64,000 nucleotides of DNA from the NCBI GenBank assembly GCA_951406725.2, contig OX597816.1, positions 55,738,001 through 55,802,000 of the forward strand, written 5' to 3'. Made by a program: the position numbers and the translations under genes. Below the pieces are notes generated by a model. That model ran no database searches. It had not been told where the DNA came from and saw only the letters and a list, made by a program, of their open reading frames with translations. The DNA comes from Octopus vulgaris (Eukaryota). Below are positions 28,929-59,630 of the stretch, in pieces (position 1 is the first letter of the stretch; each line of letters opens with the position of its first letter).

Positions 28929-29395
28929 TTTAAATAATAAGGGAGATAGATTAATATCAATTTTAATATCAATTTAAAACCAGTAGTCTAGCAAACAAAA
29001 AATCTGAAAAATCAGAGAAGATTCTAATACACGTGTATATTTACAGGGCAAGACTGCTAGGTAGTCTGCCACATGCTAGAAATAGATCACCAACGATCAA
29101 ACTACAAAGAAAGTTCTCTAGAGGAAAAATTCAGCGAACACCAGAACCAAATTTGGCGGGCAGGACAGATGAAAATTTATATAAAAAAACAGAATTAATT
29201 GCATACCTCGGTTTCGGCCTTTAACAAAAGAATTACTTACATAATTCAAATGTCCGTGGTTCCATCAGTGCAATCGTTCAGTGTAAATGCAATCTGAAAA
29301 ACTAACTCCAGCTTTCTGTGCCAAAACAGACACGTGTTTAGTTTTACCGAGTACATTAGGGATAAAATTTCAAATGTCTTAGTTCCGGCGCGCTA
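28929..29395 (-). mobile_element. HHR-bearing element, family 2 (degenerate copy)
   Basis: Homologous to 59042-59630 but starts at a different phase of the unit; 3' end next to (TA)n; other end abuts a mariner fragment. Confidence 0.8.
29198..29274 (-). ncRNA. Type I hammerhead ribozyme, probably inactive
   Basis: Minus strand: ATTGCA-CTGATGG-(long stem II region)-GAA-ACCGAGGT-A-TGCAAT. Stem I is perfect; core A9 is changed to G. Confidence 0.7.
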
Positions 29396-29970
29396 TGAAG
29401 GCGTCCATCAAGGCGTCCAGGACCCTTGTCATATCATCCTTCTTCTTTCTCAAAGCCTCCACAAAGTACTATTTATTGGCCGCCTTCTGGCCAGAGGGAA
29501 TCCAATGAAAGAAGATGACGCCTTTTCTGTTGTAAAACGTGTTCAATATGAGCTTCTCGGTGGACTCGCTTTGCCTGATCTTCAGGGGTCTGGAAGAACC
29601 AGGATGCTTCCATTGTCCCTTTTGTCTCTTAGTTGCTGGATTATAAGAAATAGATTCTGATTTCGTCACAGGACTCCAGAGGCTCAAGTACTCTTGAACC
29701 GGGGGTAATGAGTTCAACCACCTCTTGCTTCTTGCTTTCTCTTCGTCACTGTGCGTTCTGGAAACAAATTATGCACATATTCTGTGCTTGTTCAGATCTC
29801 CCTCAATAATCCTGTGTATGTACGACACCAATTTCAAACTGTACGTTTATTGACTTTGTAAGAATTCAGAATTTTCTCATTTATCTCTGAGGTTCCAAAC
29901 ATCCATCTCCCCCTCACACCTCTCACTGTCTCTCATCTCCTTTCTACCCACTTTGAATATTTTGTACCAG
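29396..29970 (-). mobile_element. Mariner-type transposase remnant
   Basis: VTKSES..YNPATKRQKGQWKHPGSSRPLKIRQSES.EKLILNTFYNRKGVIFFHW matches the mariner region following the first catalytic Asp. Confidence 0.85.
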
Positions 29971-45007: not shown

Positions 45008-45285
45008 GGAATTTTGTATGGATAATACCATACAACATTATGGTGCCTTTAACTTAAGTACCATATTCATCTGAATCTATATATATATATATATATACTA
45101 AGCAATTAAGGGTTTAGCAACGAATTGCCTTACCACACACCGAATTTAGAAATAGCAGTCAAAGAGATTATAGCTATTTCTTCTACTAAAAGGGAGATCA
45201 CAGTAAAGGCACAGCATTTGAAAGGCAAACACAAACAGGTAAAAGAGAATGAATTAACGGCAATCTATTATACAGTTTTAAGTCA

Positions 45286-45377
45286 CCTACGGACGTACGT
45301 TTCGAGATCAAGTCTTAGGAAAGCATAAGAATTAGATAACTCTACTTTACCCAGACTTCTTCTTTCATCAGCGCAGG
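45286..45377 (-). ncRNA. Type I hammerhead ribozyme (inverted unit)
   Basis: Reverse complement of the motif at 45742-45833. Confidence 0.9.
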
Positions 45378-45741
45378 ATACTAACAATCATGAATGATTG
45401 AATATTGAATTTTGAGATACTAGAAGGCACCAACTCAACTCAGTATCAGAGCGAGCTAGAGGCCACAGCTAGTATCACCAAATTCAAAGTATGAATGAAA
45501 GCTTGTGTCACCAGTCCCTTCCCACCCGCGTGTAGCCAAGACAAAGTGCCGTGGTCATTTACTGGGATGAATATGGTTTATGAGTAACAATGAAGGGTGA
45601 AATTAATTAATTTGGAACAATTATCAATTACACCAAGTAGTCTTCGGCATGTAAAAGCCTCATTTCGCTCTGATACTGAGTTGAGTTGGTGCCTTCTAGT
45701 ATCTCAAAATTCAATATTCAATCATTCATGATTGTTAGTAT

Positions 45742-45833
45742 CCTGCGCTGATGAAAGAAGAAGTCTGGGTAAAGTAGAGTTATCTAATTCTTATGCTTTC
45801 CTAAGACTTGATCTCGAAACGTACGTCCGTAGG
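45742..45833 (+). ncRNA. Type I hammerhead ribozyme, extended helix II
   Basis: CCTGCG-CTGATGA-(61 nt hairpin)-GAA-AC GTAC GT-C-CGTAGG; predicted cleavage after C45827 (GUC). Confidence 0.9.
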
Positions 45834-46327
45834 TGACTTAAAACTGTATGATAGATTGCCGTTAATTCATTCTCTTTTACCTGTTTGTGTTTGCCTTTCA
45901 AATGCTGGGCCTTTACTGTGATCTCCTTTTAGTAGAAGAAATAGCTATAATCTCTTTGACTGCTATTTCTAAATTCGTTGTGTGGTAAGGCAATTCGTTG
46001 CTAAACCCTTAATTGCTTAGTATTACTTAAATTTTCCTCGAATGAGGCTTTTACATGCCGAAGACTACTTGGTGTAATTGATAATTGTTCCAAATTAATT
46101 AATTTCACCCTTCATTGTTACTCATAAACCATATTCATCCCAGTAAATGACCACGGCACTTTGTCTTGGCTACACGCGGGTGGGAAGGGACTGGTGACAC
46201 AAGCTTTCATTCATACTTTGAATTTGGTGATACTAGCTGTGGCTTCTAGCTCGCTCTGATACTGAGTTGAGTTGGTGCCTTCTAGTATCTCAAAATTCAA
46301 TATTCAATCAATCATGATTGTTTGTAT

Positions 46328-46419
46328 CCTGCGCTGATGAAAGAAGAAGTCTGGGTAAAGTAGAGTTATCTAATTCTTATGCTTTCCTAAGACTTGATCT
46401 CGAAACGTACGTCCGTAGG
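46328..46419 (+). ncRNA. Type I hammerhead ribozyme, extended helix II
   Basis: Same motif; predicted cleavage after C46413. Confidence 0.9.
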
Positions 46420-46914
46420 GAACTTAAAACTGTATGATAGATTGCCGTTAATTCATTCTCTTTTACCTGTTTGTGTTTGCCTTTCAAATGCTGTGCCTTT
46501 ACTGTGATCTCCCTTTTAGTAGAAGAAATAGCTATAATCTCTTTGACTGCTATTTCTAAATTCGGTGTGTGGTAAGGCAATTCGTTGCTAAACCCTTAAT
46601 TGCTTAGTATTACTTAAATTTTCCTCGAATGAGGCTTTTACATGCCGAAGACTACTTGGTGTAATTGATAATTGTTCCAAATTAATTAATTTCACCCTTC
46701 ATTGTTACTCATAAACCATATCCATCCCAGTAAATGACCACAGCACTTTGTCTTGGCTACACGCGGGTGGCAAGGGACTGGTGACACAAGCTTTCATTCA
46801 TACTTTGAATTTGGTGATACTAGCTGTGGCTTCTAGCTCGCTCTGATACTGGGTTGAGTTGGTGCCTTCTAGTATCTCAAAATTAAATATTCAATCATTC
46901 ATGATTGTTTGTAT

Positions 46915-47006
46915 CCTGCGCTGATGAAAGAAGAAGTCTGGGTAAAGTAGAGTTATCTAATTCTTATGCTTTCCTAAGACTTGATCTCGAAACGTACGTC
47001 CGTAGG
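46915..47006 (+). ncRNA. Type I hammerhead ribozyme, extended helix II
   Basis: Same motif; predicted cleavage after C47000. Confidence 0.9.
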
Positions 47007-47500
47007 GAACTTAAAACTGTATGATAGATTGCCGTTAATTCATTCTCTTTTACCTGTTTGTGTTTGCCTTTCAAATGCTGTGCCTTTACTGTGATCTCCC
47101 TTTTAGTAGAAGAAATAGCTATAATCTCTTTGACTGCTATTTCTAAATTCGGTGTGTGGTAAGGCAATTCGTTGCTAAACCCCTAATTGCTTAGTATTAC
47201 TTAATTTTTCCTCGAATGAGGCTTTTACATGCCGAAGACTACTTGGTGTAATTGATAATTGTTCCAAATTAATTAATTTCACCCTTCATTGTTACTCATA
47301 AACCATATTCATCCCAGTAAATGACCACAGCACTTTGTCTTGGCTACACGCGGGTGGAAGGGACTGGTGACACAAGCTTTCATTCATACTTTGAATTTGG
47401 TGATACTAGCTGTGGCCTCTAGCTCGCTCTGATACTGAGTTGAGTTGGTGCCTTCTAGTATCTCAAAATTCAATATTCAATCATTCACGATTGTTAGTAT

Positions 47501-47592
47501 CCTGCGCTGATGAAGGAAGAAGTCTGGGTAAAGTAGAGTTATCTAATTCTTATGCTTTCCTAAGACTTGATCTCGAAACGTACGTCCGTAGG
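47501..47592 (+). ncRNA. Type I hammerhead ribozyme, extended helix II
   Basis: Same motif with one A>G in helix II (A-U becomes G-U); predicted cleavage after C47586. Confidence 0.9.
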
Positions 47593-47878
47593 TGACTTAA
47601 AACTGTATGATAGATTGCCGTTAATTCATTCTCTTTTACCTGTTTGTGTTTGCCTTTCAAATGCTGGGCCTTTACTGTGATCTCCCTTTTAGTAGAAGAA
47701 ATAGCTATAATCTCTTTGACTGCTATTTCTAAATTCGGTGTGTGGTAAGGCAATTCGTTGCTAAACCCTTAATTGCTTAGTATTACTTAAATTTTCCTCG
47801 AATGAGGCTTTTACATGCCGAAGACTACTTGGTGTAATTGATAATTGTTCCAAATTAATTAATTTCACCCTTCATTGT

Positions 47879-47965
<87 letters not shown>

Positions 47966-58795: not shown

Positions 58796-59041
58796 TACAC
58801 ACATACACACATACAAAGATAAATTGATAGATACAAATGAGTGGGCAAACAAAAATATGAAACACAGCCTAGTGCTTTTTTATGTTAATAAGCCTAGTAC
58901 TCATTCTATTAGTTTGTTCTTGTGAAACCAGCAAGTTATGTGAATGTAAAAAATGAACAGCAATTGTTAAGCAGTGATGAGGGCGAAACACAGAGACAAA
59001 AACACACACATAGACTTGCATATATACATACATATATATAC

Positions 59042-59630
59042 GTATATTCAAAGGACAAGACCGCTAGGTAGTCGGCCGTATGCTAGAAATAGATCACCAA
59101 CGATCAAACTACAAATAATGTTCTCTAGAGGAAATTTCAACACCAGAACAATTAGGCGGGCAAGACAGATGAAAATTATGTAAAAAAAAAAACAGAATTA
59201 ATCACATACCGGCGGTTTCAACTATTAACAAAATAATTACTTACATAATCAAAATGTCCGTAGTTTCGTCAGTGCGATCGTTCTGACAAATGTAATTTGA
59301 AAGACTAACCCCAGCTTTCTGTGCCAAAACAGACATGTGTTTAGTTTTACCGATTACATTAGGGATAATGTCTTAATTCTGGCGCACTAAAAATTCCGGA
59401 AGCGAAGAACTACAGTAAATAATTTACTGCGGTTAGTGCTGCCTATTAGAGAACATATTTATTTTAATTAAATAATGAGGGAGATAAATTAATATTAATT
59501 CAAAATCAGTTGCCTAGCATACAAAATCTGAAAGATCAGAGAAAATTCTAATACATTTGTATATTCAAAGGGCAAGACCGCTAGGTAGTCGGCCGTATGC
59601 TAGAAATAGATCACCAACGATCAAACTACA
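59042..59630 (-). mobile_element. HHR-bearing element, family 2, 517-bp unit plus ~70-bp partial tandem
   Basis: 59042-59113 is repeated at 59559-59630; contains an intact hammerhead; homologous to 28929-29395. Confidence 0.85.
59201..59278 (-). ncRNA. Type I hammerhead ribozyme, extended helix II region
   Basis: Minus strand: ATCGCA-CTGACGA-AACTA-(36 nt)-TAGTT-GAA-ACC GCC GGT-A-TGTGAT; intact core; GUA triplet. Confidence 0.88.

What the first reader, a model, noticed from the sequence alone, without database searches (positions are those of the whole stretch)
59042..59630. Second hammerhead family (517-bp unit) occurs as circularly permuted copies
Seen: this copy is 1.14 units long with an intact HHR. 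The copy at 28929-29395 begins with sequence (TAAATAAT.AGGGAGATA..) that lies near the far end of this one (~59470) and reads straight through the unit junction. Stem I co-varies (AUCGCA/UGUGAU versus AUUGCA/UGCAAU), and helix II again encloses a long insert. Inference: permuted, slightly over-unit-length insertions are what reverse transcription of a circular or concatemeric RNA would give.
Basis: partly seen in the sequence, partly recalled or inferred. Interest (0 to 1): 0.72.

Follow-up and report, generated by a model that had tools for sequence, protein, structure and literature searches.

The report
Hammerhead retrozyme with two fixed ends
This is one copy of a dispersed, protein-less repeat of about 520-550 letters that carries a predicted self-cutting RNA; its copies end at one of two fixed points beside TA repeats, the footprint expected if a Penelope-type retrotransposon enzyme copied them, so it is likely a new family of a known kind of jumping element.

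Summary
In detail: 59042-59630 is 1.14 units of a 517-nt repeat with an intact type I hammerhead on the minus strand, and 28929-29395 is a permuted 0.85-unit copy whose core is broken. The permutation is only half free. In 89 genomic insertions, 121 of 129 3' ends fall at two sites of the unit about 95 nt apart, and 111 of 129 abut (TA)n/(CA)n; 5' ends scatter. Forty insertions have two inverted arms; the 33 with both ends classifiable all pair one site with the other. This is the published Penelope-like (PLE) footprint: two internal start sites ('tail'), partial tandems, 5' inversions. No copy sampled runs on into a coding element. So this is a non-autonomous, PLE-mobilised non-LTR retrozyme. 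Most sampled copies read through the cleavage site with no junction scar, so the template was a ligated circle or an uncleaved tandem RNA; the genome data do not separate the two, and no RNA data could. An intact TA-targeting PLE family is present but shares no detectable sequence. The scan found this architecture before in other repeat families of this genome.

The parts
59042..59630 (-). Retrozyme copy, 1.14 units of 517 nt; 3' end (ribozyme sense) at 59042 = start site A, 5' end truncated at 59630
59042..59113 (-). 72-nt terminal direct repeat, 3' copy (pseudo-LTR-like redundancy)
   Evidence: 1 mismatch in 72 nt to 59559-59630
59559..59630 (-). 72-nt terminal direct repeat, 5' copy
59201..59278 (-). 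Type I hammerhead: stem I 59278-59273 with 59206-59201, core CUGACGA 59272-59266, extended stem II, GAAA, short stem III, predicted cleavage between 59207 and 59206 (GUA)
   Evidence: motif scan; pair counts on 53 copies; activity not tested
59551..59566 (-). Site A as it reads inside the unit (circle positions about 158-173): small AC-rich hairpin where 66 of 129 sampled 3' ends cluster (class window c120-190)
59459..59475 (-). Site B (circle positions about 249-265): small AU hairpin where 55 of 129 sampled 3' ends cluster (class window c236-275)
59020..59041 (.). TA-rich target flank; TATAC stands on both sides of the copy (low complexity, so not a reliable target-site duplication)
28929..29395 (-). 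Second copy, 0.85 unit, another subfamily; 3' end at site B beside (TA)n; 5' end joins a mariner-type transposase remnant
29198..29274 (-). Hammerhead of the second copy: stem I AUUGCA/UGCAAU intact, core broken (CUGAUGG)

Best explanation
This is a dispersed non-coding repeat with a conserved type I hammerhead whose copies end at two fixed sites next to TA microsatellites, likely a non-LTR retrozyme mobilised in trans by a Penelope-like retrotransposon. Shown: the conserved ribozyme fold, the two 3' sites about 95 nt apart, scattered 5' ends, head-to-head arms that pair site A with site B, read-through of the cleavage site, and intact PLEs in the genome that also end at (TA)n at two points. 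Inferred: a PLE GIY-YIG/RT protein nicks both strands of (TA)n. Each nick primes cDNA inside the RNA, one at A and one at B. The cDNAs run a variable distance, often past one unit, and are joined 5' to 5', or only one survives, giving a direct copy ending at A or B. The window copy is an A-primed arm that ran 1.14 units. The template is likely a monomer read round more than once, a circle made by hammerhead cleavage and ligation (about 0.55), or else an uncleaved tandem transcript (about 0.4).
For: 3' ends: 121 of 129 in two class windows that cover 21% of the unit; 16 of 17 in the 11 insertions added last, after the windows were set; the same two sites appear with an internal query that contains neither end. 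111 of 129 3' ends have a microsatellite within 30 nt, against 426 of 4183 distal flank windows. Inverted insertions: 40 of 89; 33 pair A with B, none A-A or B-B, 7 have an unclassified end. Hammerhead: core intact in 33 of 36; over 53 copies 96% of cells pair and 8 of 24 pairs change on both sides, 3 of them among the 4 pairs of stem II, against 29-41% paired when slid. The unit folds at z = -3.8. The genome holds intact 781-aa RT plus C-terminal GIY-YIG ORFs whose copies end at (TA)n with or without a tail of about 35 nt. Literature: the PLE 'tail' lies between two internal RT start sites, both strands are cut and extended, and one start lies in an AC-rich stem-loop (PMC11167929); tail often at one end only, 5' inversions, microsatellite bias (PMC8557442); animal retrozymes derive from PLE pLTRs (10.64898/2026.07.22.740005). 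For a monomer template: junction length constant in 81 of 81 passes (13 or 14 nt by subfamily); repeated parts within one insertion differ by 2.9-3.8% against a median of about 8.7% to other insertions, and no unit-position haplotype was seen to recur apart from one CpG site.
Against: No sequence link to an autonomous PLE: blastn and an nhmmer profile found nothing in 42 GIY-YIG loci, which cover few of the genome's PLE families. PLE fragments lie beside 3 of 89 copies, but none is a same-sense chimera. The A-B distance (about 95 nt) is longer than the 30-40-nt tails described. Variants private to one insertion and shared by both of its repeats are few (7, against 63 unshared), so a single RNA molecule per insertion is not shown. 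Most inverted arm pairs overlap so that one arm lies within the other, which fold-back on the first cDNA would also give; only a few (L048, L037) do not. The class windows were drawn after seeing the first data, and the sample is top-scoring hits only. Cleavage, transcription and circles are untested.
Confidence: 0.82

Rival explanations
1. Same element and same PLE enzyme, but the template is always an uncleaved linear tandem transcript from a few homogeneous source loci; no circle is involved and the ribozyme serves some other step.
For: PAc used unprocessed RNA as its main substrate, and ribozyme mutants inserted normally in vitro (PMC11167929). At least 8 of 89 insertions hold two whole ribozymes in one arm and could be sources. 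Within-insertion divergence (2.9-3.8%) is not below the distance to the nearest other insertion (2.1-3.3%).
Against: Daughters could never be longer than their source, and the longest arm seen is 2.94 units; no long array turned up in 89 insertions (not exhaustive). Subfamily changes are carried by all units of an insertion, which is simplest if lineages pass through one monomer (inference). Compensatory changes around an invariant core suggest that cleavage was selected.
Confidence: 0.38
2. One reading: copies are randomly permuted because reverse transcription starts anywhere on a circle.
For: 5' ends are scattered round the unit and the two window copies are in different registers.
Against: 121 of 129 3' ends lie at two sites.
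Confidence: 0.03
3. The copies are solo pseudo-LTRs, the 3' fragments of a longer coding PLE that was not sampled.
For: PLE insertions are mostly 5'-truncated and retrozymes resemble pLTRs.
Against: Long copies continue into another unit, not into an ORF. The 5' flanks of 43 direct copies share no extension (only scattered other repeats), and tblastn with two PLE proteins finds no same-sense 5' fusion in 89 loci.
Confidence: 0.1
4. Inverted arms arise by fold-back synthesis on the first cDNA followed by endonuclease trimming, not by priming from both DNA ends.
For: Several junctions sit on palindromes of the unit (c224, c158-161, c5) and in most pairs one arm is contained in the other.
Against: L048 (arms c184-253 and c333-165) and L037 have arms that are not contained in each other; either arm can be the longer one; both strands were extended in vitro (PMC11167929).
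Confidence: 0.25

Closest known systems
Metazoan non-LTR retrozymes (Cervera and de la Pena 2020, PMC7229834; passages and section 14 seen)
   Same: Non-coding, low-GC, highly paired unit with one type I hammerhead; monomers to short tandems; PLEs proposed as mobilisers; circles shown in coral, mussel and axolotl.
   Different: Unit of 517-560 nt against 170-400 nt there; mostly dispersed copies of about one unit rather than arrays; stem II extended to 46 nt; circles not shown here.
Non-LTR retrozymes as non-autonomous PLE derivatives (Li, Clavereau, Pollet 2026, 10.64898/2026.07.22.740005; parts 1-3 of 5 read)
   Same: Co-occurrence with EN+ PLEs; unit length within their range (51-972 bp); many monomers.
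   Different: They show pLTR homology in Xenopus; none was found here. In the parts read they do not map insertion ends. Only 1 of their 9 dimers cleaved in vitro, so activity cannot be assumed.
EN+ Penelope-like elements: insertion structure (Craig et al. 2021, PMC8557442, passages) and mechanism of PAc (Frangieh et al. 2024, PMC11167929, abstract and main text)
   Same: 5' truncation, partial tandem (pLTR), 5' inverted arm, tail at one end only, AT-rich or microsatellite targets, two internal start sites.
   Different: No ORF; distance between the start sites about 95 nt rather than 30-40; in vitro PAc showed no difference of start site between strands, whereas here the two ends of one insertion used different sites in 33 of 33 classifiable cases.
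Other hammerhead repeat families in this genome (360-nt and 485-495-nt units in earlier scan notes; the 587-nt family at 45098-47882)
   Same: Same two-arm, two-site, TA-flanked architecture (seen directly for the 587-nt copy).
   Different: No significant sequence similarity to the 587-nt unit (local score 34 against shuffles 33.7 +/- 4.5; no nhmmer hit), although its two ends align with sites A and B.

Membership tests
Metazoan non-LTR retrozyme | Type I hammerhead with conserved core and stems I-III | tested here: met
   no Rfam hit at gathering threshold
Metazoan non-LTR retrozyme | Head-to-tail repeat unit of a few hundred nt, low GC, dimers or longer exist | tested here: met
   unit 517-560 nt; arms up to 2.94 units; at least 8 of 89 insertions with two whole ribozymes in one arm
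Metazoan non-LTR retrozyme | No protein-coding capacity, no true LTR | tested here: inconclusive
   no tblastn match of two PLE proteins within copies or the window; terminal repeat length varies by copy; ORFs of the unit were not listed separately
Metazoan non-LTR retrozyme | Highly self-paired monomer | tested here: met
   z = -3.76, 0 of 100 shuffles as good; outside the ribozyme almost no covariation among 46 arms
Metazoan non-LTR retrozyme | Self-cleavage in vitro | not testable with these tools
   needs a transcription-cleavage assay
Metazoan non-LTR retrozyme | Expressed as linear and circular monomer RNA | not testable with these tools
   only assembled contigs of runs guessed to be RNA were offered
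Non-autonomous Penelope-like element | 5' truncation with fixed 3' ends at two sites (tail) | tested here: met
   121 of 129 3' ends at two sites; 5' ends scattered
Non-autonomous Penelope-like element | Inverted 5'-truncated arm, tail at one end only | tested here: met
   40 of 89 inverted; 33 A+B, 0 same-site, 7 unclassified
Non-autonomous Penelope-like element | AT-rich or microsatellite target | tested here: met
   111 of 129 against 10% background
Non-autonomous Penelope-like element | Sequence shared with the pLTR of an autonomous PLE | tested here: inconclusive
   none in 42 GIY-YIG loci, of which the 30 clustered were mostly one family (21 of 30) out of 6136 candidates
Autonomous PLE | RT plus GIY-YIG ORF | tested here: not met
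   no ORF within or fused 5' of 89 insertions

The most novel reading that the evidence does not exclude
Each insertion is written by one PLE dimer from one circular retrozyme RNA, with a strict rule that the two nicked DNA strands start at two different hairpins (A and B) about 95 nt apart; the hammerhead is selected because cleavage and ligation regenerate the monomer that internal initiation would otherwise erode. The family would then be a natural genetic record of circle-templated, two-site priming and a minimal substrate for testing it.
Probability: 0.4. Interest if true: 0.6.

Novelty: new member of a known kind. Interest (0 to 1): 0.36.

Why it matters
How animal retrozymes get back into the genome, and how PLEs make their tails and inverted arms, are still mostly inferred. 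This family gives a countable rule (one A end and one B end in all 33 classifiable inverted insertions) that ties the two internal start sites seen in vitro to the two DNA strands, and a 520-nt substrate with which circle and linear templates can be compared. The element class, the PLE link and the footprint are all published, and earlier notes of this scan report the same pattern in other families of this genome, so the gain is incremental.

Tried and rejected
RNA: no RNA holder is on record. Contigs of three runs guessed to be RNA and one run of unknown kind cover most of the unit, but contigs cannot show ends, strand or circles, no listed piece from a guessed-RNA run bridges the cleavage site by 31 nt on both sides, and flanking repeats are covered more deeply; not used as evidence. 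Pile-up of 5' ends at the cleavage site: about 7 insertions start within c514-c8 (L108, L110, L130, L133, L140, L141, L176), but genome-wide an 18-nt motif across the intact site has 181 exact matches (control 2) against 4 for TATA joined at the site (control 2; 2 of the 4 are family copies), and a stricter pattern had 0. TA microhomology and a palindrome at c5-12 could explain these, so it is left as a hint. Apparent unit-position haplotypes and the divergences were BLAST gap-placement artefacts; redone with MAFFT. A suspected two-subfamily inverted pair at C5:101.19 Mb: only one arm and a short A arm mapped (L137), not followed further. PLE chimeras: L172 is separated from its PLE neighbour by a TA run, L148 is joined tail to tail, L027 lies beyond the microsatellite. 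Homology to the 587-nt family is not significant. Target-site duplications cannot be defined inside (TA)n. Literature searches listed no paper on cephalopod retrozymes or on a strand-by-site rule; the library lacks most subscription papers, only listings were seen for papers not named here, and no supplements were read.

Full report
Observation. The window stretch 59042-59630 is 589 nt. Its first and last 72 nt repeat at a distance of 517 nt with one mismatch, so it is 1.14 units. The minus strand carries a type I hammerhead: stem I AUCGCA/UGUGAU, core CUGACGA, 46 nt of stem II, GAAA, a short stem III and a GUA cleavage site between 59207 and 59206. Rfam reports nothing at its gathering scores.

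The family. The window lies in a 2.8-Gb animal genome (earlier scan notes call it a cephalopod, which I did not test). Four DNA searches gave 2029, 842, 1730 and 1009 candidates, of which 40 each were scored. An 18-nt motif across the intact cleavage site has 181 exact matches, control 2, so there are at least some 180 ribozyme-bearing units. I mapped 89 distinct insertions onto the circularised unit, position 1 being the first base after cleavage: 65 from the 90 loci after removing duplicates; 13 picked ones (12 fetched, mostly because hit tables showed two nearby matches, plus L133); and 11 of the 30 loci, chosen by eye as not overlapping earlier ones. Tandem spacings in other copies are about 528-562 nt, so 517 is particular to this copy.

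The ribozyme is under selection. The core is intact in 33 of 36 ribozymes. Over 53 copies, 96% of cells pair, and 8 of 24 pairs change on both sides, including 3 of 4 pairs in stem II (AACU/AGUU, GGCC/GGCC, GUCU/AGAC) and 2 of 6 in stem I; slid structures pair 29-41%. The copies fall into about three subfamilies, so independent events are few. The 'insert' in stem II is a two-part extension with a GUAA loop. The unit folds at z = -3.8, but outside the ribozyme there is almost no covariation.

The ends. Of 129 outer 3' ends (ribozyme sense), 66 fall at site A (mostly c155-173), 55 at site B (mostly c247-259) and 8 elsewhere; the class windows cover 21% of the unit. The windows were drawn from the first data, and the first query itself began at A. 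But an internal query with neither end gave the same sites, and the last 11 insertions gave 16 of 17. A microsatellite, (TA)n or (CA)n(TA)n, lies within 30 nt of 111 of 129 3' ends, against 426 of 4183 distal windows. The 5' ends of 43 direct copies are scattered over the unit, 25 of them also next to a microsatellite, and their flanks share no extension. Forty insertions have two arms joined head to head; 33 pair an A end with a B end, none pairs like with like, and 7 have an end of neither class. Both sites lie in small predicted hairpins, A in an AC-rich one. The window copy is a direct A-ended arm; the copy at 28929 is a direct B-ended arm.

What makes such ends. Craig et al. (PMC8557442, passages) describe PLE insertions as 5'-truncated partial tandems, often with an inverted arm, with a 30-40-nt tail often at one end only and a bias for microsatellites. 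Frangieh et al. (PMC11167929, abstract and main text) show that a PLE protein cuts and extends both strands of AT-rich DNA, starts inside the RNA at two sites whose interval is the tail, one in an AC-rich stem-loop, and mainly uses uncleaved RNA. The family fits this point by point, with a tail of about 95 nt. [quoted passage not shown] Neither blastn nor a profile found sequence shared with the unit in 42 GIY-YIG loci, so the partner is not identified. PLE fragments lie beside 3 of 89 copies, but none is a same-sense fusion.

Circle or tandem. In 82 of 89 insertions an arm crosses the cleavage site and in 50 an arm exceeds one unit (both favoured by the queries). The junction has a constant length in 81 of 81 passes, and copies that begin at the cleavage site are few. 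So the template was not a cut linear monomer read once. Repeated parts within an insertion differ by 2.9% (30 tandem pairs) and 3.8% (33 arm pairs), against 2.1-3.3% to the nearest and about 8.7% to the median other insertion; shared private variants number 7 against 63 unshared. That fits decay after insertion from one monomer sequence, but equally a homogeneous tandem source. At least 8 of 89 insertions have two whole ribozymes in one arm and could release a monomer. By inference, internal initiation on linear sources would shorten a lineage each round, and a circle or an exact template jump would restore length. I put a monomer read round at about 0.55 and uncleaved tandem RNA at about 0.4. 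No usable RNA data were available.

Comparison and verdict. Cervera and de la Pena (PMC7229834, passages and section 14) define animal non-LTR retrozymes, show circles in coral, mussel and axolotl, and propose that a PLE RT copies the circle into tandem cDNA. Li et al. (10.64898/2026.07.22.740005, parts 1-3 of 5) link them to PLE pLTRs. This is a further family of that kind; cleavage and circular RNA remain untested for it. The useful detail is the A-with-B rule in 33 of 33 classifiable inversions, which makes a per-strand start-site experiment concrete. Interest 0.36.

Noticed in passing
window 45098-47882: The other hammerhead family: a 587-nt unit, about 3.8 units in tandem plus a 567-nt inverted arm, 98-99% identical, (TA)n on both sides, two ends about 100 nt apart; core CUGAUGA at 46334 with a 61-nt stem II and GUC site. 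A local alignment with the 517-nt unit is collinear over about 265 nt and puts its two ends on sites A and B, but the score is not above shuffles.
   Followed up: partly
L091-L099, L102 (for example G000:C5:1037500-1047000): Very young PLE family (98-99% identical copies) with a 781-aa RT/GIY-YIG ORF, an upstream open frame of up to 479 aa without a convincing Pfam match, a pLTR of about 500 nt and a repetitive 3' region; my scan for a canonical hammerhead core in five loci gave none inside the pLTR.
   Followed up: partly
L102:7550-7827, L068:2515-2781, L087:304-386: Short pieces 70-87% like the 3' part of the 587-nt family lie in TA runs at or near PLE copies, two of them two-armed; they suggest a wider set of related short elements and reuse of the same TA sites.
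   Followed up: partly
L148:1-1542 (G000:C12:39005000): Four alternating segments: PLE antisense, PLE sense, retrozyme antisense, retrozyme sense, with no microsatellite between PLE and retrozyme; most simply two adjacent two-armed insertions joined by a deletion.
   Followed up: partly
window 29395-29900: Mariner/Tc1-type transposase remnant (Pfam Transposase_1, E 5.6e-6) directly at the 5' end of the second copy.
   Followed up: partly
L108, L110, L130, L133, L140, L141, L176: Copies or arms whose 5' end lies within c514-c8, at or just after the predicted cleavage site; possibly copied from the 3' cleavage product, but microhomology and a palindrome are alternatives.
   Followed up: partly
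L172:120-1455: A 5'-truncated PLE of another family (about 30% identical to the 781-aa protein), ending at (TA)n; not tested as partner.
   Followed up: no
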